Source: a virus (lineage: Duplodnaviria > Caudoviricetes). From it: 62,814 nt of DNA. The DNA lies in the IMG/VR virus record IMGVR_UViG_3300008255_000011, positions 1-62,814 of that record; one strand, written 5' to 3'. Position numbers and translations under genes: made by a program. The notes under the pieces are model-generated. The model made no database searches. It was given only the letters and a program-made list of their open reading frames with translations, and had not been told where the DNA came from. How positions within the stretch are numbered: the stretch's first letter is position 1; each line of letters starts with the position of its first letter. Below, one piece after another: positions 1,208 through 42,780 of this stretch.

Positions 1208-2344
1208 GTGAGCACTCGTAGCATAGGCGCGGTGCAGGCGGTCGGGACGTACTCCGCCCAAGACATCGGCGCTGTGCAGGTGGTCAGTGGGGCAGGCGGG
1301 GCGACGATCAGCCTCGGCATCCTTGCCGCTGAGGCCGCGCTCAACGCCCCCACGGTCAGCGCGGGTGCGGTCACCGTCTCGCCGGGCGTCGTCGAGGGAG
1401 TGGGGGGGCTGAATGCCACCACGGTCGCGCCCGGTCCGGCGACGATCTCCATAGGCGTCCTAGCAGCGACGGGCGAGCTGCTTTCGCACACGCTGACCCC
1501 CGGCGCCATGTCCGTAGCACCGGGTGTCGTCGAGGCATCTGCCGCCATCCAAGCGCCCTCCGTCTCCCCCGGTGCCGTCTCCGTAGCACCGGGTGTCGTC
1601 GAGGCATCTGCCGCCATCCAAGCGCCCTCCGTCTCCCCCGGTGCCGTCTCCGTAGTCGCGGACGTACTCGAGGCGTTGGCCGCCCTCCCGCAGGTGACCC
1701 TCCTGCCCGGGAGCAGGACGGTCTCCACGGACGTCCTCGTGGTGGAAGCGGTCCTGAATCCGGTGACCGTGTCCCAGGCAGGCGTGTCCGTCGGCCTCGC
1801 GGCGCTGCATGCGCAGGCGGCCGTCCTTGATCCCACGCTCTCCCCCGGGGCGGCGTCGATCGCCCTTGCCATCCTCGATGCGGCCGGCGCCCTCGCGAGC
1901 CCCAGCGTCGGCGTGCCTCCGATCTCCCTCAGCATCGGGGTCCTCGCTGCCACCGGCGAGCTCCTGCCGGCGGCCTTCGGCCTCAGCGCGCTCACCCTCG
2001 ACCTGGACGCGCTCGAGGCCGCAGGAGAACTCCACGGGCCCGCCCTGCTCATCCAGGCGCACACGATCGCCTTGGACGTCCTGTGGAGCCTCGCAGCCGC
2101 GCAGGCCCCTGGAACGGCACCCGGGGCGGTCACGATGGACCTGGATGCCCTCTCCTCCATCGCCACGGCCCTGAACGTCGCCGTTCGCGCCACGGTCTAC
2201 GTCGTGGGGGAGCGGACCGCGCTCGTGGACTTCCTCTCCTCTGCCAGGGCGAGCGGCTGGGTGACCATCGTCGCGTCCCGGGTCACGGCCCGGGTGAAGC
2301 CGGATCTTGAACGCGCCGGCGTGTTGACCTCGATCGTCTCCTGA
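1208..2344 (+). CDS. Ala/Val/Pro-rich repetitive tail fibre-like protein
   Basis: ~23-aa degenerate repeats (SVAPGVVEASAAIQAPSVSPGAV); abuts the upstream stop. Confidence 0.6.
   Translation: MSTRSIGAVQAVGTYSAQDIGAVQVVSGAGGATISLGILAAEAALNAPTVSAGAVTVSPGVVEGVGGLNATTVAPGPATISIGVLAATGELLSHTLTPGAMSVAPGVVEASAAIQAPSVSPGAVSVAPGVVEASAAIQAPSVSPGAVSVVADVLEALAALPQVTLLPGSRTVSTDVLVVEAVLNPVTVSQAGVSVGLAALHAQAAVLDPTLSPGAASIALAILDAAGALASPSVGVPPISLSIGVLAATGELLPAAFGLSALTLDLDALEAAGELHGPALLIQAHTIALDVLWSLAAAQAPGTAPGAVTMDLDALSSIATALNVAVRATVYVVGERTALVDFLSSARASGWVTIVASRVTARVKPDLERAGVLTSIVS
1511..1655 (+). repeat. Perfect 69-bp tandem duplication (2.1 copies), in frame
   Basis: 1511-1579 = 1580-1648, partial third copy to 1655. 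Confidence 0.9.
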
Positions 2345-3533: not shown

Positions 3534-3848
3534 GTGAACCGCATGGAGACGAGCGCGTGGATCGCCCTCGCAGGAGTCATTCTCACGAATGGCGGAATCC
3601 TCCTTACGATGATCACTCGGCACGCCCGCTCCGAGGAGCGGGTGAATGAACGGATCCGGACCCTCGAGGTCGACCTATCGCGTGGGCGAGAGCGCTTCGT
3701 CGGCTTCGATCGCAAGCTCGATTTGCTTGCAAGTCACGTGAATGCAATTCACCTCCAGGTCGCTCGGATCTCCGAGCGGCTGGGGGTCCCGGAACGGCGT
3801 CATGCCACAGATCCAGGCCTCGACTTCGACCAGGACTCCGGCTCCTAG
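3534..3848 (+). CDS. Small membrane protein with N-terminal TM helix and coiled coil (holin/XhlA-like)
   Basis: Hydrophobic WIALAGVILTNGGILLTMI followed by a heptad region; position after tail genes. Confidence 0.5.
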   Translation: MNRMETSAWIALAGVILTNGGILLTMITRHARSEERVNERIRTLEVDLSRGRERFVGFDRKLDLLASHVNAIHLQVARISERLGVPERRHATDPGLDFDQDSGS

Positions 3849-4408
3849 TCCCCGTCGGAGGGTGCGACCTCGAGTCCGCCGTAGCGGAGCCAGTACTCCG
3901 CGCACCGCCGGGCCGCTCCGGACAGCTGCTCCTCGCCGCGCTCGACGCGGGGGTAGTAGCCTGCCGAGAGCCCGAGCTGCTCGGCCGCCTCGGCCTGGGT
4001 CAGGTCGCGGTCCAGACGTGCGTCCCGGAGCCGATCCCAGATCACCTCCTCGCCCAGGAGGTACTCGCCGTCCTCGTCCACCGCCCCCTCGGCGTCCAGG
4101 ATCCACGCCGGGGCTCCGGCCGCGACCGCCGCCTCGATTGCCGCGCGGACCCCGGAGGAGGTCCCGTCCGTGTGCGGGATCCGCACTGCTTCGTGCGTGA
4201 CCCCGTGCTCGTCCCGGTAGGTGGTGAGGGTCCAGTCGTCAGTCCGCTCCTCGGGCAGGTAGATCAGGGACGGGTCCACCGCCGCGATCTCCTCCGCCTC
4301 CTCCACGGAGAGGCCGTCGCGGGCCTCCTCGATGGGAGTAGTGTACTGGCTCAGGGTCCGGCCCGTCCGCCGGGCCTCCTCGATCGCCTCTTGTCCGGTC
4401 AGTCTCAT
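3845..4408 (-). CDS. XRE-family HTH regulator with N-terminal extension (only confident minus-strand gene)
   Basis: C-terminal RLRDARLDRDLTQAEAAEQLGLSAGYYPRVERG HTH; GAGGAG RBS before ATG 4408. Confidence 0.8.
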   Translation of the reverse strand: MRLTGQEAIEEARRTGRTLSQYTTPIEEARDGLSVEEAEEIAAVDPSLIYLPEERTDDWTLTTYRDEHGVTHEAVRIPHTDGTSSGVRAAIEAAVAAGAPAWILDAEGAVDEDGEYLLGEEVIWDRLRDARLDRDLTQAEAAEQLGLSAGYYPRVERGEEQLSGAARRCAEYWLRYGGLEVAPSDGD

Positions 4409-4444
4409 CTCTCGCTCCTCTCGTCGCCCCATCGCGACAGAGGG

Positions 4445-4497
4445 ACTATACGTCACGGATAGCACGCGGTCAACGTGAAATCTATCCGTGACGGATA
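4445..4497 (-). promoter_or_regulatory. Sigma70-type promoter TTGACC-N17-TATAGT overlapped by two palindromic operators
   Basis: -35 at 4473-4468, -10 at 4450-4445; TATACGTCACGGATA 4447-4461 and TATCCGTGACGGATA 4483-4497. Confidence 0.75.
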
Positions 4498-5512: not shown

Positions 5513-5734
5513 CCGCACCTGGTGGCCCATCTACTGCGTCGGCCCGGACTGCCTCCGCACCGTCCGCGCGTACCAGGCGCACGAGGGGCCGATCTGTGAG
5601 CACTGCCGGCGAGTCTACCCGTGGATCACGGCCGCCAGGCCGCTGCCCCCGCTGCGGGGGTGACACGATCCTCCAAGCCGGTGAGCTGGTCTGCCCGTGG
5701 GGATGCGGGCGCTGGCCGGCGCGGTAGTCCGCCG

Positions 5735-5772: not shown

Positions 5773-6726
5773 ATGGCCTTGACTACGCCATGCCGGCTCA
5801 TCCACGAGCTCCGCGGCTCGCTCCCACAGCCCGGGGCTCGTGCGATTCCGGGCGAGTGCTACGTCTGCGGCCTGCCTCATGATCGCGCCCTACCGCGCGA
5901 GGACGTCGTGAGGACATCGTTCACCAACGCAGATTCCGCCGGTGCGCCGTGGAGCGACACGGTCTGCGAGCCGTGCGCTGCGGCGATGCGCGGGAAGCCG
6001 AGCAAGACGGACAAGCCCCTCAGGATGGACTCGCACCTGTACCGGGACGGTGTATGGACGCGCTTCGGCAAGGGGGACGCGGGCGCTATCGCTTTGACCT
6101 GGCGGACCATGCTAGACCCTCCCGAAGGCCCGTGGTTCCTCGCGCTCGCGGAGTCTGGGCAGCTACACGTCTTGCCATGGACATCGCTCTGCGATGGCCG
6201 CGGACCATGGCGCATCAGGTATGAGCGGGACGACGTCGCGTGTGACCCGGTCGCCTTCGCATCGCTCACATGGCACGTCCTTTCGCTGTATCTTGCGGGC
6301 ATCCCTCGCGATGACATCCTGAGCGGCAGCCCGGGAGCCACAGCGCTCCGGCGGGTGGGGGTTGAGGTTTTTCGCGAGCACGATCCGTGGATCCGGCCGT
6401 GGCGGGGTGGTCCTGCCCTCCGGTTGGTCTGTGGGCTGCTCAGGCGGGAGGGCATGGATGCGATCCGAGATATTGCCGCCGACGTCGCGGGAGTCCGACG
6501 AGACTCTCCGGCGGATCGCGGCGCGACTGATCCTGACGATCCACCGGATGGTGGACTGGCAGCAGGTGGACCCGAGGTCATACTGGGAGCGGATGCCGGC
6601 GGCATTCCGCGCGCGGGCGCAGATGGCGACGAGCTACGGCCAGATGATCGAGGCTCTCCGGAAGGCTCTCCGACTGCGCCCGTGGACAGGAGAGGCTGCC
6701 AGCGAGGTCTCTTCGATCGGACGTGA
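5773..6726 (+). CDS. csf1: Type IV CRISPR large subunit Csf1 (Cas8-like)
   Basis: Zn motif CYVCG...SFTN...VCEPC and PPEGPWFLALAESGQLHVLPW; first gene of the csf operon. Confidence 0.8.
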   Translation: MALTTPCRLIHELRGSLPQPGARAIPGECYVCGLPHDRALPREDVVRTSFTNADSAGAPWSDTVCEPCAAAMRGKPSKTDKPLRMDSHLYRDGVWTRFGKGDAGAIALTWRTMLDPPEGPWFLALAESGQLHVLPWTSLCDGRGPWRIRYERDDVACDPVAFASLTWHVLSLYLAGIPRDDILSGSPGATALRRVGVEVFREHDPWIRPWRGGPALRLVCGLLRREGMDAIRDIAADVAGVRRDSPADRGATDPDDPPDGGLAAGGPEVILGADAGGIPRAGADGDELRPDDRGSPEGSPTAPVDRRGCQRGLFDRT

Positions 6727-6841
6727 CCTCGCGAACCCTGTGAGTTTCCGGCGCTTCTGCCGGCTCGTGCGCGAGGAGGGGGCTCTCCTCGCCGCGGAGG
6801 TCCGCGTCACACTCGACGCGATGAAGGAGTCGAAGTCATGA
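6458..6841 (+). CDS. cas11: Type IV-B small subunit (Cas11-like)
   Basis: 127-aa helical protein; GGGAGG RBS before ATG 6458; lies between csf1 and csf2; ATGA-coupled to csf2. Confidence 0.65.
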   Translation: MRSEILPPTSRESDETLRRIAARLILTIHRMVDWQQVDPRSYWERMPAAFRARAQMATSYGQMIEALRKALRLRPWTGEAASEVSSIGRDLANPVSFRRFCRLVREEGALLAAEVRVTLDAMKESKS

Positions 6842-7845
6842 GAAGGTCCCTCAGGTGCAACATGGTGTTCACCATGCTCTCGGCCCTGCACCACGGGCAG
6901 GGCGTGGACGGCAACGTCGCTCTCTTCCGCACGGGGCGCTTCCTCGTGCGTGGGGAGGTGCAGGACCTCCCCTACATCTCCGGCAACGCCCTCAAGCACG
7001 TCCTCGTGCGCGACCCCGGCGTCCGGCACATGCTCCGCGTCCTCGAACTCAAAGACGGGTCCCTGAGCAAGGGTGCGATTCACCTGCTGTTCTCTGGCGG
7101 GTCGCTCTCGGTGAAGGGTTCGGCGGTCTCGCTGTCTCAGTACCGGGAGATCTGCGAGCTGGTCCCGATCCTCGCGATCTGCGGGGGCGCCGTCGGCAAC
7201 TACATGATCGAGTCTCGGATCTCCGTTGGTGACGCCCGGCCCGTGTGCGATGAGCACGGGGACCGCATCCCGGTCGCCGAGCTGATCGACGCCGGCATGA
7301 TCGACCCCGAGGACGTGGAGCGTCCCATCGGTCACCTGCTTGACGTCCAGATGGGGACTCGACACGACCCGCTTCGGGCACCGACCGTCCGCCGCTATCT
7401 GACGGGCGGGGAGCAGCGCCAGCTCGAGCTCGACAAGAGCGCCGCGCTCGCCGTCCGGGAGGAGGGTGGACACGCGGACAAGGGCGACTCGCAGCAGATG
7501 CTTTACGAGAGACAGGTGCTCGCGGCAGGGACGCGGCTGCACTCCAGGCTGTACACCCGCGATCTCACCGAGATGGAGGAGGCTGCGCTCTGGTCAGCGG
7601 TCGGGGAGTGGCTGCGTCGTCCCTTCCTCGGGGCGAACTCATCGGTAGGCAACGGCGAGGCCCGCCTCCGGATCCTGCCGTCCGAGCCGGTCTCAGTCCC
7701 TGGTACGGTCTGGGAGGGGACGACGGCCCCAGTGGCGGTGGGCGAGCCGGAGCACTGCCAGATGCACACATGGATGAGCCGCTACGATGAGCAGCTCCTG
7801 GAAAGGAAGGCGGACATCCTCGCGGCGCTCGGGAAAATCCGGTGA
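6838..7845 (+). CDS. csf2: Type IV backbone subunit Csf2 (Cas7)
   Basis: RAMP motifs LSALHHG, LPYISGNALKH, LLFSGGSL, ICGGAVGNYMIESRISVG, FLGANSSVGNG. Confidence 0.88.
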   Translation: MRRSLRCNMVFTMLSALHHGQGVDGNVALFRTGRFLVRGEVQDLPYISGNALKHVLVRDPGVRHMLRVLELKDGSLSKGAIHLLFSGGSLSVKGSAVSLSQYREICELVPILAICGGAVGNYMIESRISVGDARPVCDEHGDRIPVAELIDAGMIDPEDVERPIGHLLDVQMGTRHDPLRAPTVRRYLTGGEQRQLELDKSAALAVREEGGHADKGDSQQMLYERQVLAAGTRLHSRLYTRDLTEMEEAALWSAVGEWLRRPFLGANSSVGNGEARLRILPSEPVSVPGTVWEGTTAPVAVGEPEHCQMHTWMSRYDEQLLERKADILAALGKIR

Positions 7846-8450
7846 CGACGGCCACGAGCGAGGTCCGTCTCGTGACGATTCGCCTGACGCAGGCCGAGAT
7901 CTGGGGCGCTGCGCCCGCCACCCGAGATCACCCGGATCTCATCTACGCTGTGCATTGCCTGCTCGCTGGTCGGTACGGTGACGCGGCGCCTCGACCATGG
8001 CGGCTGTCCATCCAGGGAGAGGGTCTGCTCGTCCGCGGGTACGTGGGGCCGGACTGGGCGCTCCCAGCGGACAACGTTTGGATACCGACGGTGGGCGATG
8101 AGGTGCGGGTCCGGATTGCGGCCATCGCGACCGCACGTCGAGATGGGAAGGAACGCGACGTTGCGATGCTCTGGGGCCGGCCCGCGCCGGGCGTGTACGT
8201 CGAGTGGCTGTGTGACCAGATTCCACGTCGCGGCGGCGGAGACGTCATCTCCGCCCAAGTCGAGCGATGGGCACTCTCGGACGTGCTGCGACTGACGCAT
8301 GGACCGAGTCGGTTCGCGAAGACCCGTCGCTTTCCCGCTGTACACTTCCTGGCCACCGTGCGATCCGGACACGGCTTCGCATCCTTCCTCCGCAGAGGCG
8401 TCGGGCGCCACCGCGCTTTCGGCTCAGGCTTCGTCGAGGTGCTCCCATGA
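7842..8450 (+). CDS. cas6: Cas6 (Cas6e/CasE-like) endoribonuclease
   Basis: N-terminal DLIYAVHCLL...APRPW and C-terminal G-loop RRGVGRHRAFGSGFV. Confidence 0.78.
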   Translation: MTTATSEVRLVTIRLTQAEIWGAAPATRDHPDLIYAVHCLLAGRYGDAAPRPWRLSIQGEGLLVRGYVGPDWALPADNVWIPTVGDEVRVRIAAIATARRDGKERDVAMLWGRPAPGVYVEWLCDQIPRRGGGDVISAQVERWALSDVLRLTHGPSRFAKTRRFPAVHFLATVRSGHGFASFLRRGVGRHRAFGSGFVEVLP

Positions 8451-9145
8451 CAGGGCCTGTTGTGATCGAGCGCGCCACCGGGCACCGTCCTATGCGCGTG
8501 CTCGCGCGTCTGGCGTCGTCCGTCGTCACGGTGGACGGACTCCTGCATCTGGATGGCCTGCTCGCCTACGTGGCGTACCGGAGGTATCCGGATCGCGGCT
8601 CGCTTCTGCCGGTCGACCTCGAGCGCGAGCCGATGGACTTCGACCTCCCGCTCGCGCGGTGGCGGTACGGGGATGCCTGGGGCTGGTGCGCGTCGTCCAT
8701 CGAGGCGGACTGGGTGGCAGAGGAGACCCGGTGGCTCAGCAAGCCTACTCCATCCGGGGAGATGGCTCGGCTCACGGACTCGCCCTCTGTCAATGTTGGG
8801 GCTGGACCGCACAAGGCGTGGCGCCTGCCCTTCCCTGCCCGTCTCGCGAGCGAGGCGCGGTGGTACGCGGTCGGAGATCTCGCCGCGGTGCGCGACATGC
8901 TCCGGGACATCCACCACCTGGGCAAGCTCCGGCATCACGGCGCCGGAGAGATTCTCGGGTGGGACGTGGAGCCGTGGGACGCCGACTGGTCACTCGCGCG
9001 CGGTGGTCGTCCGATGCGATACCTGCCATGGGGATGGCCGGAGGTCGAGGGGGCGCGGGTGATGGCGGGACTCCGGCCTCCATACTGGCACCGAGCGCGG
9101 CAGGCGGACGCGCTTTCCCCTCAGCAGGCGGAGAGAGGGAGATGA
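8447..9145 (+). CDS. csf3: Type IV Csf3 (Cas5-like)
   Basis: LHLDGLLAY, LPLARW, WCASS, WYAVGD, HLGKLRHHGAGEI, MRYLP, RPPYWH motifs. Confidence 0.85.
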   Translation: MTGPVVIERATGHRPMRVLARLASSVVTVDGLLHLDGLLAYVAYRRYPDRGSLLPVDLEREPMDFDLPLARWRYGDAWGWCASSIEADWVAEETRWLSKPTPSGEMARLTDSPSVNVGAGPHKAWRLPFPARLASEARWYAVGDLAAVRDMLRDIHHLGKLRHHGAGEILGWDVEPWDADWSLARGGRPMRYLPWGWPEVEGARVMAGLRPPYWHRARQADALSPQQAERGR

Positions 9146-9414
9146 TCCGCGGGTCCGTGTTCATCGGGCCGCACGCGGTACGACGGTACGTTGAAAGGTG
9201 CCGGCCGGGACTCTCCTACGATGCGGCCCGCGAGGAGCTTCTCGCGGCAATCGCTGACGCCCATCCGATCAAGTCATCCGGGGACTGCGTCGTGCTCCGC
9301 ACCGGTCGTGCCTTCGGCCGGATCCGGCTCGTGGTGGGGCCGGGCAGAGGGCCATTTCCGGCGCTTTTGACCGTGCTCTCCGCCCGGACGAGCAAGGGGC
9401 GGCGCCGGTGCTGA
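9142..9414 (+). CDS. Small protein with HAxxRYxER motif (possible BECR/RelE-like RNase fold)
   Basis: ATGA-coupled to csf3; FIGPHAVRRYVER...RIRLVV...LLTVL. Confidence 0.55.
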   Translation: MIRGSVFIGPHAVRRYVERCRPGLSYDAAREELLAAIADAHPIKSSGDCVVLRTGRAFGRIRLVVGPGRGPFPALLTVLSARTSKGRRRC

Positions 9415-10136
9415 TCGAGAGCCCTCGCCACAGGCCGGACGACCTGGCGCTGTGGCGTCGATGGGAGGCGGTCGACGTTTGGCGCGGCCGGAGGATTGGG
9501 CTCAAGGCAGATGCCGCCAGGGCCGTCCTCCGCGACTTTGCCGCGGCTGGGCCGTGCTACGCAGGCACCTCGTGGGGTAAGGATTCCACTGTAGTCACGC
9601 ATCTGGCCTGGTCATCAGGGTCAGATATCCCCGCCGTCCGCGTCCGGATCGAGCAGGGAGAGAATCCCGACACGGATCTGGCGAGGGATGCATCGCTCGC
9701 GATGATGCCCGGGCTCCGGTACTCGGAGCGCATAGTCCGGGCTCGCCATGATGCGGAGGGATGGTACGTCCGCGGAGGGATCACCGGCGAGCTGCGCGCC
9801 ATCACCCATGAACTTGGCGGCCGGTACGTCTCCGGGATTCGCGCAGCGGAGTCGGCAGAGCGCGCGCTCCGCACGCTGCGATACGGAGAGAGCACGGCGA
9901 GGACGTGCGCCCCGATCGCCCGATGGTCCGCCGCAGACGTGTGGTCCTACCTCGCGGCATACGACCTGCCGGTCCATCCCGCCTACGCATGCACCGGAGG
10001 CGGCCGCTGGAACCGCGACCGGATCAGGGTCGGGCCGCTCGCGATCGTGCTCCACGTCCGGCCCGGAGAGGTCGAGGGGGAGGGGCACGGTCGGCTGATC
10101 TGGGAGCGAGAATACTACGGGGCCCCGATGGCGTAG
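9408..10136 (+). CDS. cysH: CysH-like / PAPS reductase family protein of type IV-B
   Basis: PP-loop SWGKDS, GIRAAES, PIARWSAADVWSYL...LPVHPAY. Confidence 0.85.
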   Translation: MLIESPRHRPDDLALWRRWEAVDVWRGRRIGLKADAARAVLRDFAAAGPCYAGTSWGKDSTVVTHLAWSSGSDIPAVRVRIEQGENPDTDLARDASLAMMPGLRYSERIVRARHDAEGWYVRGGITGELRAITHELGGRYVSGIRAAESAERALRTLRYGESTARTCAPIARWSAADVWSYLAAYDLPVHPAYACTGGGRWNRDRIRVGPLAIVLHVRPGEVEGEGHGRLIWEREYYGAPMA

Positions 10137-10204: not shown

Positions 10205-10232
10205 TTGACATGTCATGCGACGATGATATGCT
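10205..10232 (+). promoter_or_regulatory. Sigma70-type early promoter TTGACA-N16-TATGCT (TGn extended)
   Basis: A-rich tract upstream; ATG at 10239 near the expected +1 (leaderless). Confidence 0.75.
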
Positions 10233-10238
10233 ATGGGT

Positions 10239-10562
10239 ATGGAAACGAACACGAGGAACGGAAGGCCAACCAAGCTCAGAACCGGCGCCTGGGGCGCCAC
10301 CGTCGACGGCGCCGTGAGGGCCGGCGACACCGTGACCATCCGCACGGCCGCCGGGAAGACGTGGCAGGCTCGCGTCGCCTCGGTCGTGTGGACCGGAAAC
10401 GGGGTGACGATCTGTGCGACCGAGAGCATCGATCGGCCGGCGACCTCCCGCCCCGCGACCAGCAGCCGCCGCACGGGCTGCTCCTGCGGGAGCCGGGAGG
10501 ACCAGTACGGCGATCTGATCCCGAGCGCGCGGAACTGCTCGGATTGCAACCACGATGCGTAG
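10239..10562 (+). CDS. Hypothetical early protein with C-terminal Cys cluster
   Basis: CSCG...CSDC; probable leaderless start. Confidence 0.65.
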   Translation: METNTRNGRPTKLRTGAWGATVDGAVRAGDTVTIRTAAGKTWQARVASVVWTGNGVTICATESIDRPATSRPATSSRRTGCSCGSREDQYGDLIPSARNCSDCNHDA

Positions 10563-10590
10563 ACGCCTGATGAACACGAGAGGAGACGAG

Positions 10591-10842
10591 ATGACGACCG
10601 AGATGACGACCGAGATGACCTGGACGCTCACGACCTACACGGACCGCTCCGGCCTACGGCGCGCGATCCAGATCCCGCACACGGACGGGACCTTCCAGGG
10701 GGTCCGCGCGGCAATCGAGGCCGCAATCGCGGCCGGGGCGCCGGAGTGGATCCGGCGCGCCGAAGGGGCGGTGGACGAAGATGGTGAGTACCTCCTGGGC
10801 GACGTGATCCCGGACATCCTCACCGAGGAGGTATCACGATGA
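10591..10842 (+). CDS. Hypothetical protein, paralog of the middle domain of the 3845-4408 regulator
   Basis: Shared WTLTTY...IPHTDGT..GVRAAIEAA.AAGAP.WI..AEGAVDEDGEYLLG; AGGAG RBS. Confidence 0.75.
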   Translation: MTTEMTTEMTWTLTTYTDRSGLRRAIQIPHTDGTFQGVRAAIEAAIAAGAPEWIRRAEGAVDEDGEYLLGDVIPDILTEEVSR

Positions 10843-11645: not shown

Positions 11646-12082
11646 GCGATGGAGTCCGCGTGAACATGGGGCGCATTCTAGATCGCCTATCTGTTGGTCC
11701 GGGCGGCTGTTGGCTGTGGGAAGGGGCAACCGATCGCGGGGGCCATGGAAAGATCATGGGACGAAAATCGGACGGGCGGATCACCACATCCTACATCCAC
11801 CGTGCCATGTACGAATGTCACTTCGGCCCGATACCTACCGGGCTATACGTAATTCACGAGTGCGACATGCCAAACTGCGCAAACCCATCACACCTGCGGT
11901 GCGGCACGCAGGAGGACAACATCCGCGGTGGGCTGAAACGCGGAAGGCCGATCGGAAGGCCGCGTGGTACGCATTGCAACCGTGGCCACAAATTCATAGA
12001 GCAGAGAGGTCGGAACGTATGTCTCCTGTGCATTCCCATTGCTCGCTCGATACGAAAAAAACCCGGGAGGATCTTCGAGTGA
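11642..12082 (+). CDS. HNH endonuclease
   Basis: CWLWEG, HRAMYE, IHECDMPNCANPSHLRCGTQEDN. Confidence 0.88.
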   Translation: MSDGVRVNMGRILDRLSVGPGGCWLWEGATDRGGHGKIMGRKSDGRITTSYIHRAMYECHFGPIPTGLYVIHECDMPNCANPSHLRCGTQEDNIRGGLKRGRPIGRPRGTHCNRGHKFIEQRGRNVCLLCIPIARSIRKKPGRIFE

Positions 12083-14268
12083 ACTACTCCGACTTCGTCG
12101 CAGGGAAGCGCATCACGTGCGCACCGGCTGGCATCGACCCAACCATGCCGATCAGCCCGGCGCTCTACGACTGGCAGGCCGACATCGTGAGGTGGGCGCT
12201 CCGGCGCGGCCGCGCGTGCATCTTCGCGGAGTGCGGGCTCGGGAAGACGCTCATGCAGCTCGAATGGGCGAGGCACGTCCCCGGCCGCGTCCTGATCCTG
12301 GCCCCGCTCGCGGTCTCCGGGCAAACCGTCGATGAGGGCGCGCGGTTCGGGCTCGAAGGCCGCTACCTCCGCGCCGACGACGGGGAGCCAGGCATCGTCG
12401 TCACGAACTACGAGATGATCGAGCACTTCGACCCGGCCAACTTCTCCGGCGTCGTCCTCGACGAGTCGAGCATCCTCAAGGCTCACGATGGGAAGACGCG
12501 GACCCGGATCATCGAGTCCTTCGCGGCGACCCCGTACCGGCTCGCGTGCACGGCGACCCCCGCCCCGAACGACCACATCGAGCTCGGGAACCACGCCGAA
12601 TTCGTTGGGGCCATGACCCGCGCCGAGATGCTCGCGATGTTCTTCGTGCACGACGGGGGCTTGGTCCAGAACTGGCGACTCAAGGGCCACGCCCGCGAAT
12701 CCTTCTGGACGTGGATGGCGTCGTGGGCCGTCATGATCAAGAGCCCGGCCGACCTGGGATACGACGGGTCGACGTTCGTCCTGCCGGAGCTGCGGACCCA
12801 CAACCACGTCCTCGACCTCGCCAAGCCGCTGCCCGGCCATCTCTTCGCCGACACCGCGAAGACATTGAACGACCAGCGGGCCGCGGCGCGGGCGAGCCTG
12901 TCGGAGCGGGTCGCGAAGGCGGCGGCGCTCGTCAACGACAGCGACGAGCCGTGGATCGTCTGGTGCAACCTGAACGCCGAGCAGGACGCACTAGAGACGG
13001 CATTCGGGGACCTTGCGCTCTCTGTTCGTGGGTCTGACTCACTGGACCATAAAGAGTCGTCGATCGCCGCATGGATGCATGGGGAGCGTCCTGTACTCAT
13101 ATCGAAAGTGTCGATCTTCGGGTTCGGCATGAACCTACAGCACTGCGCGAAGGTCGCCTTCGTCGGCCTGTCTCACTCGTGGGAAGCCTACTACCAGGCC
13201 ATCCGCCGATGCTGGCGGTTCGGACAGAAACGGCCCGTAGACGTGCACGTGATCGTCTCCGACGCCGAGCTTGAGATCCTCCGCAACATCGACAGGAAGG
13301 AAAGGGAAGCCGCGATCATGACCCAAGAGATGACTAGCCGGATCAGCGTCCACACGAACCTACGCAGCATGGAGCCGATCACCGAGACGGAGTACGAGAC
13401 GGACGTGGCGACCGGAGACGGGTGGACCATGCACCTCGGGGACTGCGTCGATGGCGTCGCGGGGCTGGACTCGGACTCGATCCACTACACCGTGTTCAGT
13501 CCGCCGTTCGCGAGTCTCTACACCTACACGAACAGCCTGAGGGACATGGGGAACTGCAAAACGGGCGATGAGTTTGCGGCCCACTTCCGCTACCTCGTGG
13601 GGGAGCTGTACCGCGTGACGATGCCGGGGCGGCTGCTGAGTTTCCACTGTATGAATCTGCCCACTTCGAAAACGCGCGACGGCGTGATCGGGCTCCGCGA
13701 CTTCCGCGGCGAGCTGATCGAGAGCTTCGTCGACGCCGGGTGGATCTATCACTCCGAGGTCGCGATCTGGAAGGACCCCGTAACCGCGATGCAGCGCACG
13801 AAGGCCCTCGGGCTCCTCCACAAGCAGTTGAAGAAGGATGCGTGCATGAGCCGGCAGGGTATCCCGGACTACCTGGTCACGATGCGGAAGCCGGGCGAGA
13901 ACCAGGAGCCCGTCACGAACACCAACGAAACCTTCCCCGTGAAGATGTGGCAAAACTTCGCGTCGCCGATCTGGATGGACATCAACCCGAGCGACACGCT
14001 CCAGTTCCGGAGCGCCAGGGAGAACAACGACGAGCGGCACATCTGCCCGGTCCAGCTCGAGGTCATCCGGCGCGCCGTCCGGCTGTGGAGCAACGAGGGC
14101 GATCTCGTCCTGTCTCCGTTCGCGGGGATCGGGTCGGAGGGTCACGTCGCCCTGGGGCTCGATAGGCGGTTCCTTGGGTTCGAGCTGAAACGATCCTACT
14201 GGTCCGCAGCGTGCGCGAACCTGCGCGCGGCGGAGATCGAAGCCAGGACGGGAACTCTCTTCTCATGA
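12079..14268 (+). CDS. SNF2-like helicase fused to an N4/N6 DNA methyltransferase
   Basis: CGLGKT, LDESS, TATP, QAIRRCWRFGQ, then FSPPF and VLSPFAGIGS. Confidence 0.85.
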   Translation: MNYSDFVAGKRITCAPAGIDPTMPISPALYDWQADIVRWALRRGRACIFAECGLGKTLMQLEWARHVPGRVLILAPLAVSGQTVDEGARFGLEGRYLRADDGEPGIVVTNYEMIEHFDPANFSGVVLDESSILKAHDGKTRTRIIESFAATPYRLACTATPAPNDHIELGNHAEFVGAMTRAEMLAMFFVHDGGLVQNWRLKGHARESFWTWMASWAVMIKSPADLGYDGSTFVLPELRTHNHVLDLAKPLPGHLFADTAKTLNDQRAAARASLSERVAKAAALVNDSDEPWIVWCNLNAEQDALETAFGDLALSVRGSDSLDHKESSIAAWMHGERPVLISKVSIFGFGMNLQHCAKVAFVGLSHSWEAYYQAIRRCWRFGQKRPVDVHVIVSDAELEILRNIDRKEREAAIMTQEMTSRISVHTNLRSMEPITETEYETDVATGDGWTMHLGDCVDGVAGLDSDSIHYTVFSPPFASLYTYTNSLRDMGNCKTGDEFAAHFRYLVGELYRVTMPGRLLSFHCMNLPTSKTRDGVIGLRDFRGELIESFVDAGWIYHSEVAIWKDPVTAMQRTKALGLLHKQLKKDACMSRQGIPDYLVTMRKPGENQEPVTNTNETFPVKMWQNFASPIWMDINPSDTLQFRSARENNDERHICPVQLEVIRRAVRLWSNEGDLVLSPFAGIGSEGHVALGLDRRFLGFELKRSYWSAACANLRAAEIEARTGTLFS

Positions 14269-16214: not shown

Positions 16215-18755
16215 GTGCACCGCATCACGAAGATCGAAACCGTGGGCGTGCGCGCCCACGACCGGGAGATGGACCTCGGCCCCCTGACTCTGCTCAGGGG
16301 GCCCGTGGGGGCCGGGAAGACGTCCATGGCCGACGCGATCCGCATCGCGGCCCTCGGCTGCGTCCCGAGCATCGGACGCGACTCGACGGCGATCGCCCGG
16401 CTCATGCGCGGCGGGCGGATGAACGTTCGGCTCAGCCTGGATGACGGCCGGACCTGCGAACGCGGGTACGTCCGGCGGGGGGAGCGGATCACGGGCGAGG
16501 CGAGCGCGAGCTGGATGCCGCCGAAGTCCCGGCTGACCGACGTCGCGGAGTCGATCCGGTCCCTCATGGGCCGGGACGACCGCGAGGCGGCGGAACACCT
16601 GGATCTCCGCCAGCTTCTCTCCTGCTCGCCGGCGGAGCGGGCCAAGAGGATCGAGGAACTGCTCGACGCCACGGGGATCCCTGTGGGCGAGCAGATCCGT
16701 CGGGCGGCGACCCTGGCCGTCCTCCGGCTTGCGGGGGTGGACCTCGCCCGGATCCCGGACGACCTCGAGTCGGCCGAGGGCGCGGCGAAGGGCGCGATGA
16801 TGCTCCTCACAGGGCCGGTCCAGGCCGTGCTGCCGGGCGTCCACCGGATGGTCGAGCGCGAGCTGGAGTCCGGAGGGATCCCGAAGACGCTGGATCTCGC
16901 GAAGGGCAAGAAGCTCGACGCGGCCGAGGCCATGCGCCGGCGGATCGCGGCCCGGGCGGAGCTGGAGGACCGGGTCAACTCGCTCCGGGCGCCCGCGGAA
17001 GCCCTGACAGAGATCTCCGCGCGCCGGGAGGCGGAGGTCTCCCGGAGAGCGGCTGCCGAGCGCGACGTGCGCGAGGCGGAGCGGGTCGCCGGGATCCGCG
17101 CCGAGCTGGACCCGCTGGTCCCAGCTCTCAAGCAGCGGATCGCCGAGGAGGAGGAGCGCCTCGCGGCGGCCGTCTCCCGGATCCCCGAGGCCGACGCGGC
17201 CCGGGCGGAGGCGGACGGCCTGACGGAGCCGCCCCCGATCGACGCGCCGGCCGTGGTCCAGCAGGATGCGGAGCAGATCTCCGCGGCGGAGGCACTCCTG
17301 GCAGACGCCCGGGCTCTCCCAGAGCCGGAGGCGGTGGCGATCGACCCGGCGGATCTGATCCGCGTCGAGTGCCTCCGGGCGGACGCGGAGCGACTTTGGG
17401 ATGAAGTCGACGAGGTCGTGGTCCCGGAGCCGCTCTACACGACGGTCTTCGAAGCCACACGCGACCAGGCCGCGCGCGAGCTGGCCCGGATGCAGACCTC
17501 GCCCTGGCGAGAGGTGGAGCACGTCGCGGACGGGCTCGCGGAGTGGGGCGCCTCGCTGCCCACGATCCTCCCGAAGCGGAACGCGATCGGGCTGGCGGTG
17601 ACCCGTCTCCGGGAGCTGGCGACCGAGAACGGTGGTCGGCTGGCGGAGACCGAGCTCGCGCTCGATCGGGCGAGGCAGGCCCTCACCAAGGCGGAGAAGG
17701 ACCGGACCGTGCGCGACCGCCAGATCCGGGATGCCCGGGAGCGGATCACATCGCTCAGGGAGTCCGCGGAAGAGGCGGACCAGCTCGCGTCAAAGGTGAC
17801 CGAGGACGCCAACGCCGCGGCCGACCGGGCATCCGCGACGGCGCGCGCGCAGTGGCTGGCCCAGGTCCGCGCGCTACAGGACCGGGCCGCGACCCTGCGG
17901 AAGGACGCGGTGGCCGCGGCGAAGCAGGAGAACGACGCACTCCGGAAGGCCTACGCGGAGGCAGTCGGGGACCGCGAGGTTCAGGTCGCCGAGATCTCGG
18001 ACCGGCGGAAGGCCCTCCTCGCCCGGGCGGAGTCGATCCGGACCGCGGCGGTGGAGAGCCAGAGCGCCCTCGACCGGGCGAGGGCGGACCTCCGTGCGGC
18101 GGAGGAGCGGCTCGCCGGCATCGCGTCGGTGACCCTCGACACTGCCACGGCGCGCACCACGATCGAGCAGGCCACGGCAGCGATCGCAGAGCACGACCAG
18201 GCCCTCAAGACCCTCCGGGCGGCGGACAGCCTCCGGGCGGAGATGAAGGCCCTCATCACCCAGATCGACGCGGCGACGGCCGAGCGGGACTGCTGGACGG
18301 CCGCAGAGTGGGCGCTGCAGCGGATCCGGGAGATGGACCTCGCTGCCCGGGCTGCCGGGCTCGAGGCGAGGATGCGCCGGTACCTCCGGGTCGCGGGGCG
18401 GACGGAGGACCCGTACCTCCGGGCGAGCCGGGGCACGTGCGACTTTGGAATGAGGCGCGGGAGGCAGGAGATCAGCGTCGAAGCGCTTTCGGGAGGCGAG
18501 ACGGCCCTCTTCGTGGCCTGCCTCGCCGGGGCCGTCATCAGCCTCCGCGGCCCGGAGATCCGGATCCTCCTCCTCGAGGCGGCGGATCTCGGGGACCGGC
18601 CGGAGGCTCAGCAGACCCTTCTCGCCTGCCGGGAGATGGTGGCCAGCGGGGACATCGACCAGGTGATCGCCGCGACCTGCATCGACATCGAGGCGCCGGA
18701 CGGCTGGACCACGGTCGACCTGGAGCCGCTGGAGGTCGAGGCGGTGCAGTCATGA
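16215..18755 (+). CDS. SMC/Rad50/SbcC-like coiled-coil ABC ATPase
   Basis: Walker A GPVGAGKTS, long coiled coil, LSGGE signature, ILLLE Walker B. Confidence 0.85.
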   Translation: MHRITKIETVGVRAHDREMDLGPLTLLRGPVGAGKTSMADAIRIAALGCVPSIGRDSTAIARLMRGGRMNVRLSLDDGRTCERGYVRRGERITGEASASWMPPKSRLTDVAESIRSLMGRDDREAAEHLDLRQLLSCSPAERAKRIEELLDATGIPVGEQIRRAATLAVLRLAGVDLARIPDDLESAEGAAKGAMMLLTGPVQAVLPGVHRMVERELESGGIPKTLDLAKGKKLDAAEAMRRRIAARAELEDRVNSLRAPAEALTEISARREAEVSRRAAAERDVREAERVAGIRAELDPLVPALKQRIAEEEERLAAAVSRIPEADAARAEADGLTEPPPIDAPAVVQQDAEQISAAEALLADARALPEPEAVAIDPADLIRVECLRADAERLWDEVDEVVVPEPLYTTVFEATRDQAARELARMQTSPWREVEHVADGLAEWGASLPTILPKRNAIGLAVTRLRELATENGGRLAETELALDRARQALTKAEKDRTVRDRQIRDARERITSLRESAEEADQLASKVTEDANAAADRASATARAQWLAQVRALQDRAATLRKDAVAAAKQENDALRKAYAEAVGDREVQVAEISDRRKALLARAESIRTAAVESQSALDRARADLRAAEERLAGIASVTLDTATARTTIEQATAAIAEHDQALKTLRAADSLRAEMKALITQIDAATAERDCWTAAEWALQRIREMDLAARAAGLEARMRRYLRVAGRTEDPYLRASRGTCDFGMRRGRQEISVEALSGGETALFVACLAGAVISLRGPEIRILLLEAADLGDRPEAQQTLLACREMVASGDIDQVIAATCIDIEAPDGWTTVDLEPLEVEAVQS

Positions 18756-37883: not shown

Positions 37884-37884
37884 G

Positions 37885-42752: not shown

Positions 42753-42780
42753 CCGAAGTTCGGAGCGTGGACCACGCTCC
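42753..42780 (+). promoter_or_regulatory. Dispersed late motif copy plus hairpin before the portal gene
   Basis: CCGAAGTTCGG; inverted repeat GGAGCGTGG/CCACGCTCC. Confidence 0.65.

What the first reader, a model, noticed from the sequence alone, without database searches (positions are those of the whole stretch)
5773..10136. Phage-encoded type IV-B-like CRISPR effector with a Cas6e-like nuclease and an extra gene but no array
Seen: a tightly overlapping operon csf1-cas11-csf2-cas6-csf3-orf90-cysH. Known: type IV-B loci (csf1, cas11, csf2, csf3, cysH-like) occur on mobile elements, typically lack Cas6, cas1/2 and arrays, and have unresolved function. Inference: Cas6e implies this variant makes its own guides, either by capturing host type I-E pre-crRNA (anti-CRISPR sponge or retargeting) or from non-array hairpins, and then recruits the CysH-like enzyme. 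This is the best candidate for an undescribed system here.
Basis: partly seen in the sequence, partly recalled or inferred. Interest (0 to 1): 0.92.

Follow-up and report, generated by a model that had tools for sequence, protein, structure and literature searches.

The report
Phage type IV-B CRISPR operon with Cas6e
A complete groundwater phage genome carries an array-less type IV-B CRISPR-Cas operon that has picked up its own Cas6e RNA-cutting enzyme and a small unknown gene, a rare but not unprecedented variant that offers a handle on which RNA these enigmatic complexes use.

Summary
Window 5773-10136 (+) is a translationally coupled seven-gene operon, csf1-cas11-csf2-cas6e-csf3-orf90-cysH-like, in a complete 62.8-kb tailed-phage record with terminal repeats. 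The 202-aa protein is a Cas6e by three tests. Pfam PF08798 scores above its cut-off. An AlphaFold model (pLDDT 91.6) matches Thermus Cse3 best. The Tyr/His pair and the glycine-rich loop are kept. The phage has no array, no I-E-like solitary repeat, and no cas1, cas2 or DinG.

It is less new than claimed. Pinilla-Redondo et al. note 12 IV-B loci with a Cas6. In my survey 19 of 79 other IV-B loci carry a Cas6e-family gene, acquired at least three separate times. This scan has also reported phage IV-B plus Cas6 on other DNA. This phage's copy is a separate capture from array-linked type I-E Cas6e, and its nearest viral relative lacks it.

The source of the RNA is unresolved. Host I-E transcripts are my leading guess. 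A dispersed phage motif followed by an I-E-handle-like 8-mer is a bolder alternative. Verdict: new variant of a known kind, with moderate interest.

The parts
5773..6726 (+). csf1 (type IV Cas8-like large subunit), 317 aa; the last ~90 residues are low-complexity and overlap cas11 in another frame
   Evidence: PADLOC typeIV_Cas8 PDLC01721 E 1e-16, residues 25-225; TIGR03114 E 1e-8, below cut-off; 47% identity to the csf1 of L003
6458..6841 (+). cas11 (type IV small subunit), about 127 aa from ATG 6458; the ORF opens at TTG 6362
   Evidence: PADLOC typeIV_Cas11 PDLC01695 E 1.3e-4 and PDLC01482 E 3.1e-4, residues 49-158 of the long ORF; 47% identity to the L003 counterpart; its stop overlaps the csf2 start as ATGA
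6838..7845 (+). csf2 (type IV Cas7 backbone), 335 aa
   Evidence: PADLOC typeIV_Cas7 PDLC01724 E 1e-49; relatives at 78% to 30% identity; 68 viral and 10 genomic loci with relatives
7842..8450 (+). Cas6e-family endoribonuclease, 202 aa (alternative start at 7872, 192 aa)
   Evidence: PF08798, 31.5 bits against cut-off 25; AF2 pLDDT 91.6, pTM 0.86; Foldseek top hits Thermus Cse3 3qrp_A E 1.9e-10, TM 0.66, and E. coli CasE; D32, Y35, H38 and the G186/G188/G194/G196 loop are conserved among 58 aligned sequences
8447..9145 (+). csf3 (type IV Cas5), 232 aa
   Evidence: PADLOC typeIV_Cas5 PDLC01727 E 6e-41; TIGR03116 E 6.5e-22, 78 bits, below the 140 cut-off
9142..9414 (+). orf90, a small accessory protein of unknown family with an invariant PHAV motif; it recurs in related IV-B loci
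   Evidence: No Pfam, NCBIfam, PADLOC or PDB sequence match. Homologues lie in L003, L004, L005, L007 and L070, inside or beside their IV-B operons, and a 69%-identical protein is on record with a longest contig of 7650 bp, the same length as given for the 78% Csf2. Atlas structure neighbours include a cluster of which 46% is DUF4258, TM 0.69: a lead only
9408..10136 (+). CysH-like PP-loop enzyme (CasCysH type), 242 aa
   Evidence: PF01507 E 4.9e-10, 40.1 bits against cut-off 22.5; weak DndC, QueC and BrxP matches; 35-43% identity to the cysH-like genes beside csf3 in many other loci; an SWGKDS PP-loop-like motif and no cysteine in the last 39 residues (read)

Best explanation
This is a genuine subtype IV-B CRISPR-Cas effector operon on a complete tailed-phage genome. 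It has two extra genes inside it. One is an intact Cas6e-family endoribonuclease, captured separately from a type I-E lineage and inserted exactly between csf2 and csf3. The other is a small protein (orf90) that recurs in this branch of IV-B loci.

Shown:
- the gene identities and the translational coupling;
- the Cas6e fold, with the Tyr/His pair and the glycine-rich loop kept;
- no array, solitary I-E-like repeat, cas1, cas2 or DinG anywhere in the phage;
- IV-B loci have picked up Cas6e-family genes at least three separate times.

Inferred, in falling order of confidence:
1. The Cas6e is active and belongs to the Csf ribonucleoprotein. It would hold a stem-loop at the 3' end of the bound RNA, as Cas6e does in Cascade and in type IV-A variants.
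2. Its hairpin RNA comes in trans, because the phage has no cognate repeat. The most plausible source is the host's type I-E CRISPR transcripts.
3. The loaded complex either withholds host crRNAs from Cascade (counter-defence) or re-uses them. The CysH-like PP-loop enzyme and orf90 would act on whatever nucleic acid the complex holds.

My odds: identity of the system 0.95; Cas6e active and part of the complex 0.65; host I-E RNA as the substrate 0.35.
For: Identity: family matches for six of the seven genes.

Cas6e:
- Model pLDDT 91.6; Foldseek best hits are Cse3/CasE.
- The profile matches Cse3/CasE chains in the PDB, 8yb6_B at E 7.7e-12.
- D32, Y35 and H38 are at least 90% conserved, and four loop glycines are invariant, in 58 sequences.
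- Type IV Cas6 and Cas6e use a His/Tyr active site (PMC8175902, passage).

Coupling: four-base start/stop overlaps on both sides of cas6e.

Origin:
- The best relatives reach only 27-49% identity, among 333 hits at E <= 1e-3.
- Of 80 metagenomic loci encoding them, 0 of 80 encode Csf2 and 38 of 80 have 28-30-nt repeats at 61-nt period downstream.
- In a Cas6e tree the window groups with these 29 array-linked proteins (SH-aLRT 98). It does not group with the 16 upstream-of-csf1 IV-B copies (one clade, 96) or the 2 csf2/csf3 copies.
- In the Csf2 tree the window pairs with L003, which has no cas6 (100), apart from the other csf2-cas6e-csf3 loci.

Recurrence: 19 of 79 other IV-B loci encode a Cas6e-family protein; 10 of 10 tested pass Pfam's cut-off.

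No cis substrate.

Consistent with supply in trans: 3 of 3 bacterial genomes that carry an IV-B locus with Cas6e also hold I-E-type arrays.
Against: - No RNA data exist for this phage, so the substrate is inferred by elimination.
- The host is unknown. The large terminase is at most 22% identical to any isolate's, there are no tRNAs, and no spacer in the fetched arrays matches the phage. Whether the host has a I-E system is therefore unknown.
- The one experiment in print found no enrichment of co-expressed I-E crRNAs in an IV-B complex, although that complex has no Cas6 of its own.
- Pinilla-Redondo et al. report a negative correlation between IV-B and other CRISPR-Cas systems in hosts. They also judge an anti-CRISPR of this complexity unlikely.
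- The window's Cas6e sits on a long branch (1.82), and the I-E comparison set was chosen by likeness to it, so the tree placement is partly by construction.
- The 3-of-3 co-occurrence is a tiny sample, and I ran no comparison genomes for it.
- A dispersed phage motif with a handle-like flank offers a cis alternative.
Confidence: 0.45

Rival explanations
1. The Cas6e works on the phage's own transcripts. A dispersed unit, the palindrome CCGAAGTTCGG followed by an 8-mer like AGTGACCC, stands in short intergenic gaps before late genes. It would act as a distributed set of solitary repeat-like sites. Cutting at the 3' side of the palindrome would leave RNAs that begin with an I-E-like 5' handle, on which Csf3 and Csf2 assemble.
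For: - There are 7 exact copies, all with the same central base on the + strand, against 0.07 expected; 0 of 100 shuffles reach 7.
- Several copies lie in gaps just before the portal gene and other late genes.
- The 8-mer right after the palindrome scores at the 98th to 99.7th percentile of the window in 5 of 7 copies. The scoring matrix is the 5' handle of the I-E repeats linked to the nearest Cas6e relatives. The score is best in exactly that register (mean -1.8, against -9 to -20 at offsets of 1-3). Mann-Whitney p is 7e-5.
- The motif is absent from 5 of 5 related IV-B viral records that lack this Cas6e.
Against: - The test was post hoc and the copies are not independent. In effect one consensus matches the handle at 6 of 8 positions.
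- The palindrome gives at most a 4-5 bp stem and does not fold into one consistent hairpin. 6 of 9 contexts have z above -1.3, and the predicted pairings differ between copies.
- The I-E repeat model does not pick these sites up.
- A palindrome before late genes is equally what a DNA-binding regulator or a promoter element would look like.
- The five records without the motif need not be related phages outside the IV-B module. The terminase was not found in 3 of 3 of them.
Confidence: 0.15
2. The Cas6e adds nothing sequence-specific. The complex binds heterogeneous RNA as the JS623 IV-B complex does. The Cas6e is then only a structural cap, or a recently acquired passenger on its way to decay.
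For: - The only characterised IV-B complex assembles on heterogeneous RNA.
- Neither the phage nor 18 of the 19 other Cas6e-bearing loci show a clear cognate repeat within 7 kb.
- The nearest viral relative, L003, works without a cas6.
- No close homologue of this Cas6e exists in 5.8 billion clusters. Yet Csf2 and orf90 do have relatives, at 78% and 69% identity.
Against: - The gene is intact, is coupled by overlapping start and stop codons on both sides, and folds with high confidence.
- It keeps the Tyr/His pair and the loop glycines, despite only about 30% identity to any relative. That pattern is what purifying selection on activity would give.
- Three separate captures of the same enzyme family by IV-B loci argue for a shared use.
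Confidence: 0.2
3. The Cas6e acts alone as a counter-defence decoy. It would compete with the host's Cas6e for pre-crRNA, or bind processed crRNA hairpins, without being part of the Csf complex. Its place in the operon would reflect co-expression only.
For: - Its nearest relatives are array-linked Cas6e.
- The phage has no repeat of its own.
- The idea that mobile elements use IV-B parts to neutralise crRNAs is discussed in print.
Against: - Insertion exactly between the Cas7 and Cas5 genes, with translational coupling, suggests set subunit ratios.
- Type IV-A complexes are known to include their Cas6.
- The same enzyme family was taken up by IV-B operons repeatedly rather than found scattered in the phages.
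Confidence: 0.1

Closest known systems
Subtype IV-B CRISPR-Cas, e.g. the Mycobacterium sp. JS623 megaplasmid Csf complex (Zhou et al. 2021, PMC7937560; passages read)
   Same: The csf1-cas11-csf2-csf3 core with a cysH-like neighbour. No array, no adaptation genes, no helicase, and carried on a mobile element.
   Different: JS623 has no Cas6 and no orf90, and its complex binds heterogeneous RNA. Here a Cas6e gene sits between csf2 and csf3, orf90 sits between csf3 and cysH, and the carrier is a complete phage.
The 'rare exceptions' of IV-B loci with a Cas6: 12 instances in Pinilla-Redondo et al. 2020 (PMC7038947; passage read; Supplementary Data S1 not seen)
   Same: An IV-B gene set together with a Cas6-family gene.
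   Different: The paper only counts them. I cannot tell their Cas6 type, gene order or carrier, so I cannot say whether this architecture is among them.
Cas6e-bearing IV-B loci found here. 16 have cas6e directly upstream of csf1 (among them loci from Frankia, Nocardiopsis and Microbispora genomes). L056 and L067/L068 have cas6e between csf2 and csf3
   Same: A PF08798 protein inside an IV-B operon with no ordinary array. L056 and L067 even share the csf2-cas6e-csf3 order.
   Different: Their Csf2 lies in other clades and their Cas6e in other branches, so these are separate acquisitions. L056 has three I-E-like hairpins about 1.3 kb downstream. The window has none.
Type I-E Cas6e (Cse3/CasE), e.g. 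Thermus thermophilus 3QRP/2Y9H and E. coli Cascade 5CD4
   Same: The fold (TM 0.57-0.67), the glycine-rich loop and the Tyr/His pair.
   Different: About 20% sequence identity. It is shorter than its nearest relatives (202 against about 245 aa), which carry an extra insert of about 45 residues after the first beta-hairpin. There is no Cascade, cas3, cas1/2 or array beside it.
Type IV-A variants that use Cas6e (Taylor et al. 2021, PMC8175902; passage read)
   Same: A Csf complex paired with a Cas6e-type enzyme that has a His/Tyr active site.
   Different: IV-A has DinG and an array and lacks Cas11 and CysH.
Virus-borne IV-B loci with their own repeats. The Fuxivirus IV-B locus has a two-repeat mini-array (PMC10541130; passages read). 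Viral contig L057 has IV-B, a generic Cas6 and a four-repeat array
   Same: An IV-B module on a virus with some means of making a defined RNA.
   Different: Those loci have repeats in cis. This phage has a processing enzyme but no repeat.

Membership tests
Subtype IV-B CRISPR-Cas | Csf2, the type IV Cas7 signature protein | tested here: met
   PADLOC typeIV_Cas7 E 1e-49; TIGR03115 E 9e-8 but below its cut-off
Subtype IV-B CRISPR-Cas | Csf1 (small Cas8-like) and Csf3 (Cas5) | tested here: met
   PDLC01721 E 1e-16 and PDLC01727 E 6e-41; TIGR03116 E 6.5e-22
Subtype IV-B CRISPR-Cas | Cas11 small subunit between csf1 and csf2 | tested here: met
   Two typeIV_Cas11 models at E 1.3e-4 and 3.1e-4, which is weak. 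The position fits, and it is 47% identical to the L003 counterpart
Subtype IV-B CRISPR-Cas | Adjacent cysH-like gene | tested here: met
   PF01507 above cut-off; 35-43% identity to the cysH-like genes of other IV-B loci
Subtype IV-B CRISPR-Cas | No CRISPR array | tested here: met
   The repeat model itself works: it finds arrays in 3 of 3 bacterial genomes
Subtype IV-B CRISPR-Cas | No cas1/cas2 and no DinG helicase | tested here: met
   PF01867, PF09827 and PF13307 give 0 matches in the whole record, and the tool's control genomes ring. A RecD-type helicase next to the operon was not sought by family. The phage's Dda-like helicase lies at 17543-21040, away from the operon
Subtype IV-B CRISPR-Cas | No Cas6 (as the subtype is usually described) | tested here: not met
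   A Cas6e gene lies inside the operon. This makes it a variant of IV-B, like the 12 exceptions noted in print
Cas6e / CasE (Pfam PF08798) | Family profile above the curated cut-off | tested here: met
   31.5 bits against 25; the profile of its alignment hits Cse3/CasE chains at E 7.7e-12
Cas6e / CasE (Pfam PF08798) | Double ferredoxin-like Cas6e fold | tested here: met
   AF2 pLDDT 91.6. The top Foldseek hits are all Cse3/CasE (E 1.9e-10, TM 0.66). Other Cas6 types follow at TM 0.3-0.46
Cas6e / CasE (Pfam PF08798) | Catalytic His with nearby Tyr, and a glycine-rich loop | tested here: met
   Y35 and H38 are at least 90% conserved and G186/G188/G194/G196 invariant. The His/Tyr active site is stated in PMC8175902. 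The Thermus and E. coli residue numbers are recalled, not from a call
Cas6e / CasE (Pfam PF08798) | A cognate I-E repeat to process | tested here: not met
   None in the phage. The nearest relatives have them in 38 of 80 loci
Cas6e / CasE (Pfam PF08798) | Hairpin-specific RNA cleavage | not testable with these tools
   Needs a cleavage assay
DUF4258 / RelE-like small RNases (considered for orf90) | Match to the family profile | tested here: not met
   0 of 8 aligned homologues match DUF4258 in Pfam, even at E 10. There is only an Atlas structural neighbour, of which 46% is DUF4258, at TM 0.69
Assimilatory CysH (PAPS/APS reductase) | C-terminal catalytic cysteine motif | tested here: not met
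   There is no cysteine in the last 39 residues of the translation. The motif itself is recalled. This fits the CasCysH description in PMC8175902

The most novel reading that the evidence does not exclude
The phage runs a 'distributed array'. Instead of a CRISPR locus it scatters solitary units through its late region, each a short palindrome followed by an I-E-like 8-nt handle. Its captured Cas6e cuts the late transcripts at these units. The IV-B complex then assembles on the handle-bearing 5' ends of the phage's own mRNAs, and the CysH-like enzyme and orf90 act on them. Type IV-B would then be an RNA-processing or RNA-marking machine for the element's own transcripts, not an immune effector.
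Probability: 0.12. Interest if true: 0.9.

Novelty: new variant of a known kind. Interest (0 to 1): 0.55.

Why it matters
Type IV-B is the least understood CRISPR-Cas subtype. The RNA it binds in nature and the job of its CysH-like partner are both unknown. A natural IV-B operon that carries its own hairpin-specific RNA enzyme gives a direct experimental handle. One can purify the complex with and without an active Cas6e and read which RNA is bound.

IV-B operons on phages and actinobacterial elements took up Cas6e-family genes at least three separate times, almost always without an array. This suggests that at least some IV-B complexes use defined hairpin RNAs. That bears on the standing 'crRNA scavenger or sponge' hypotheses.

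It is not a new kind of system. The core is textbook IV-B, and IV-B with a Cas6 has been counted in print and seen elsewhere in this scan.

Tried and rejected
- **Single-sequence fold of the Cas6e.** It failed (pLDDT 39.5). I repeated it with an alignment.
- **phmmer of the single Cas6e against the PDB.** It gave only antibody noise. The profile search worked.
- **Single-protein scans of viral contigs.** Scans with Cas6e and with Csf2 found nothing. The alignment-based scan found 68 loci.
- **Megablast of the operon against isolate phages.** No match. tblastn of Csf2 found one record, Skermania phage SPI1, at 32% identity, with every gene annotated hypothetical.
- **Window Cas6e against 401 Actinomycetota genomes.** One weak hit at E 9e-4, which is uninformative.
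- **Cluster look-up of the nearest Cas6e relatives.** It gave only 'CasE' names and no context.
- **Hairpin census.** There are 107 perfect 6-bp GC-rich hairpins, against 86 +/- 8 in shuffles, and no repeated family. The CCCCCG-CTG-CGGGGG hairpin at 5646-5660, 110 nt upstream of csf1, is one of many and not an I-E repeat. The loop is too short, and the repeat model scores it at E 6.8 on the other strand.
- **Rfam at E <= 10.** Three chance-level hits.
- **Spacers.** A short-word blastn of the 80 Cas6e-relative loci against the phage gave only short matches. Some are coding-sequence matches, and I checked that one lies outside its locus's array. None is a full-length spacer match.
- **Motif scan of viral contigs.** It returned 87 single, scattered matches, which fit chance.
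- **Complex prediction of Csf2 with Cas6e.** No verdict.
- **Sequencing runs.** No RNA holder is listed. Laying contigs showed identical DNA in three further groundwater runs.
- **orf90.** Nothing in Pfam (8 homologues) or in the PDB.
- **Literature.** The searches behind 'not described in print' are 'type IV-B' + cysH + Cas6 (7 papers), 'type IV-B' + CRISPR from 2022 (22 papers) and IV-B + Cas6e (6 papers). None describes an IV-B operon with Cas6e between csf2 and csf3. Subscription journals and supplements were not searchable. A search for the Cse3 catalytic residues found nothing relevant, so those residue numbers are recalled.
- **Rows left out.** The Csf2 tree used 64 of 80 rows. The other 16 were dropped because the best single-domain match was under 200 aa, and 9 of those carry an upstream Cas6e. 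The careful tree search did not finish, so the quick tree is reported.
- **Array script.** It flagged 8 loci, but only L057 has evenly spaced CRISPR-type repeats. I did not follow the three-copy repeats in L015 and L046.

Full report
**What is there.** The window is a whole virus record of 62,814 bases. It has a 118-nt direct terminal repeat and is rated 100% complete. G+C is 64-73%. It encodes a large terminase (40105-41916), a portal (42767-45379), a major head protein (47930-48934) and tail proteins. The terminase is at most 22% identical to that of any isolate phage, and there are no tRNAs, so the host is unknown.

On the + strand, 5773-10136 holds seven consecutive genes:
- csf1 5773-6726
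- cas11 6458-6841 (the ORF opens at 6362)
- csf2 6838-7845
- a Cas6e-family gene 7842-8450
- csf3 8447-9145
- orf90 9142-9414
- a cysH-like gene 9408-10136

PADLOC's type IV models match at E 1e-16 (Csf1), 1.3e-4 (Cas11), 1e-49 (Csf2) and 6e-41 (Csf3). The TIGR equivalogs match below their cut-offs, so these proteins are diverged. Pfam places the 202-aa protein in PF08798 (31.5 bits, cut-off 25) and the last gene in PF01507 (40.1 bits, cut-off 22.5).

Four junctions are ATGA or GTGA overlaps. orf90 and cysH overlap by 7 bases. A sigma-70-like promoter at 10205-10232 follows the operon.

**Is 7842-8450 a real Cas6e?** Yes.
- An exhaustive profile-free search of 1.84 billion representatives found 333 proteins at E <= 1e-3. 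Only the protein itself was below 1e-30, and the rest were 27-49% identical over the matched parts.
- Aligned with 57 of these hits, the protein keeps D32, Y35 and H38 (each conserved in at least 90%) and four invariant glycines of the C-terminal loop.
- The alignment's profile matches Cse3/CasE chains in the PDB (8yb6_B E 7.7e-12; 1wj9; 2y8w; E. coli 4qyz_K).
- AlphaFold2 with that alignment gives pLDDT 91.6 and pTM 0.86.
- Foldseek's best hits are all Thermus Cse3 and E. coli CasE (E 1.9e-10, TM 0.66). Other Cas6 types come far behind.
- Taylor et al. 2021 state that type IV Cas6 and Cas6e use a His/Tyr active site (PMC8175902, passage). That fits Y35/H38.

The protein is shorter than its relatives (202 against about 245 aa). 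It lacks their insert of about 45 residues after the first hairpin.

**Is there anything for it to cut?** I found nothing in the phage.
- TRF, the repeat finder and my own array script found no array or mini-array.
- Rfam had nothing at gathering score.
- The I-E stem pattern had 0 matches.
- I then built a specific probe. The 80 metagenomic loci that encode the nearest Cas6e relatives contain no Csf2 (0 of 80). In 38 of 80 they carry arrays of 28-30-nt repeats at 61-nt period, 1-2 kb downstream. Most of the other 42 are short contigs.
- A covariance model of 25 distinct repeats found nothing in the phage with filters off; the best hit was E 0.51.
- The same model found arrays in 3 of 3 bacterial genomes searched, so it works.
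- cas1, cas2 and the DinG-type helicase domain are absent from the whole record.

- Pinilla-Redondo et al. [quoted passage not shown]
- I collected 79 other loci that encode Csf2 relatives: 68 viral contigs, 10 genome contigs and Skermania phage SPI1.
- A profile of the Cas6e alignment, run over their six-frame ORFs, found a Cas6e-family ORF in 19 of 79. L067 and L068 are identical. A second, iterated profile found the same 19. 10 of 10 tested pass Pfam's cut-off for PF08798.
- In 16 loci the gene lies directly upstream of csf1. Two of these carry a C-terminal zinc-finger-like extension (L023, L075). The set includes loci from Frankia, Nocardiopsis and Microbispora genomes.
- In L056 and L067/L068 the gene lies between csf2 and csf3, as here.
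- None of the 19 matches the window's protein by tblastn at 1e-3.
- Earlier reports of this scan describe phage IV-B operons with a Cas6 on other DNA.

**Separate captures.**
- In a Csf2 tree (64 of 80 rows, quick search), the window pairs with L003 (SH-aLRT 100). L003 has no cas6. This pair is sister to the clade that holds the upstream-Cas6e loci. L056, L057 and L067/68 form a distant clade (97).
- In a Cas6e tree (48 rows), the 16 upstream copies form one clade (96). The window's protein groups with the 29 array-linked proteins (98), away from both IV-B groups.
- Two cautions apply. The window's branch is long (1.82). The I-E set was chosen by likeness to it.
- Together with the different gene positions, this points to at least three acquisitions.
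- The closest relatives of Csf2 (78%) and orf90 (69%) are each on record with a longest contig of 7650 bp. No comparably close Cas6e exists among 5.8 billion clusters. So this Cas6e looks like a gain in this lineage.

**The other accessory genes.**
- orf90 has no family, but it is not an orphan. Homologues with an invariant PHAV motif lie in L003, L004, L005, L007 and L070, always inside or beside the IV-B operon and at varying positions.
- The Atlas's own model of orf90 has structural neighbours in a cluster of which 46% is DUF4258 (TM 0.69). That is a lead, not a result.
- The CysH-like protein has a PP-loop-like SWGKDS motif and no C-terminal cysteine. This matches the 'CasCysH' description, a likely ATP alpha-hydrolase or adenylating enzyme rather than a sulfate reductase (PMC8175902).
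- In L003 a radical-SAM-like gene (CxxxCxxC) stands where cysH would be.

**How it most likely works.** By analogy with Cascade and with type IV-A, a Cas6e encoded between the Cas7 and Cas5 genes, and coupled to both, should be a subunit that binds and cuts a stem-loop and stays on its 3' product. The phage has no such stem-loop of the I-E kind, so the RNA would have to come from elsewhere. Host I-E CRISPR transcripts are the obvious candidate: the enzyme's relatives process exactly those, and the three bacterial genomes with Cas6e-bearing IV-B loci all have I-E-type arrays. The outcome could be sequestration of host crRNAs or their re-use.

Four points count against this:
- The JS623 complex did not take up co-expressed I-E crRNAs, though it has no Cas6 of its own.
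- IV-B correlates negatively with other CRISPR systems.
- The host is unknown.
- There are no RNA data.

I put this reading at about 0.35, within an overall 0.45 for the statement as a whole.

**A bolder lead.** I confirmed it.
- CCGAAGTTCGG occurs 7 times, always with the same central base on the + strand, against 0.07 expected.
- Near-copies lie at 2362, 46708 and 60912.
- Most copies lie in short gaps before late genes.
- The 8 bases that follow score at the 98th-99.7th percentile in 5 of 7 copies on a matrix of the I-E 5' handle, and only in that register.
- The test is post hoc and the copies are not independent.
- The palindrome does not fold into one consistent hairpin, and a DNA operator or promoter element would look the same.
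- The motif is absent from five related IV-B viral records, but those need not be related phages.

I give this reading 0.12-0.15.

**Distribution.** Contigs identical to this stretch occur in four coded aquifer or groundwater runs from four studies. One of them is probably the source. Run X2 covers part of cas6e with no differences.

**Verdict.** This is a new variant of a known kind: IV-B with a separately captured Cas6e and the orf90 accessory, on a phage. Its value is as an experimental entry point to the RNA partner of IV-B complexes. The wider pattern of repeated Cas6e capture by array-less IV-B operons is worth more than this one locus.

Noticed in passing
window 4570, 25854, 42753, 45408, 50683, 52082, 56975 (near-copies at 2362, 46708, 60912): The dispersed palindrome CCGAAGTTCGG occurs 7 times on the + strand against 0.07 expected. 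Most copies lie in short gaps before late genes and are followed by an AGTGACCC-like 8-mer. It could be a regulator site, a promoter element or an RNA processing site.
   Followed up: partly
window 6458-6726: cas11 overlaps the low-complexity tail of csf1 by 269 bases in a different frame. The same arrangement is seen in L003 (csf1 match to 6475, cas11 match from 6135). It is unclear which frame is under selection in the overlap.
   Followed up: no
window 3845-4465 (-) and 10555-10842 (+): Inverted paralogous genes (69% identity over 59 aa) bracket the block that holds small membrane/lipoprotein-like genes and the IV-B operon. This may be a cassette boundary or a recombination site.
   Followed up: partly
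L003 8709-10169 and 6578-7984: In the closest viral relative, a radical-SAM-like gene (CxxxCxxC) stands where the cysH-like gene would be, followed by an orf90 homologue. Its Csf2 also has an N-terminal extension of about 130 aa. An earlier report of this scan describes the same radical-SAM swap on other DNA.
   Followed up: partly
L057 11025-12029 and about 12535-12800: This viral contig has an IV-B operon, then a generic Cas6 ORF and a four-repeat array with 61-nt period about 3 kb downstream. It is an IV-B locus with its own array.
   Followed up: partly
L056 10433-10555 and 2401-2570: This IV-B locus has the csf2-cas6e-csf3 order and three I-E-like hairpins (CCCCGC, 4 nt, GCGGGG) spaced 50-55 nt apart, about 1.3 kb downstream of csf3. 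A cluster of five similar hairpin repeats lies 4.5 kb upstream. These may be degenerate cis substrates.
   Followed up: partly
L023 693-1781 and L075 4686-5774: Here the Cas6e-family domain is fused to a C-terminal cysteine-rich (zinc-finger-like) extension, giving 363 aa, directly upstream of csf1. L075 comes from a Frankia genome.
   Followed up: no
window 5646-5660: A perfect GC hairpin (6-bp stem, 3-nt loop) sits at the end of a small zinc-ribbon ORF, 110 nt upstream of csf1. Two overlapping frames here both encode CxxC motifs.
   Followed up: partly
window 1497-1703: A 69-nt tandem repeat with 2.8-3 copies at 96% and 65% identity to the first copy.
   Followed up: no
window 11710-14268 and 37558-39213: Two large fusion proteins carry DNA methyltransferase domains: a helicase-methyltransferase and a ParB-like-methyltransferase (PHROGs).
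   Followed up: no
window 6164 to 9743 (coded run X4): One 246-nt, low-depth contig joins 6164 to 9743, which would remove most of the operon. Only 30 bases lie on the shorter side, so it may be an assembly artefact.
   Followed up: no
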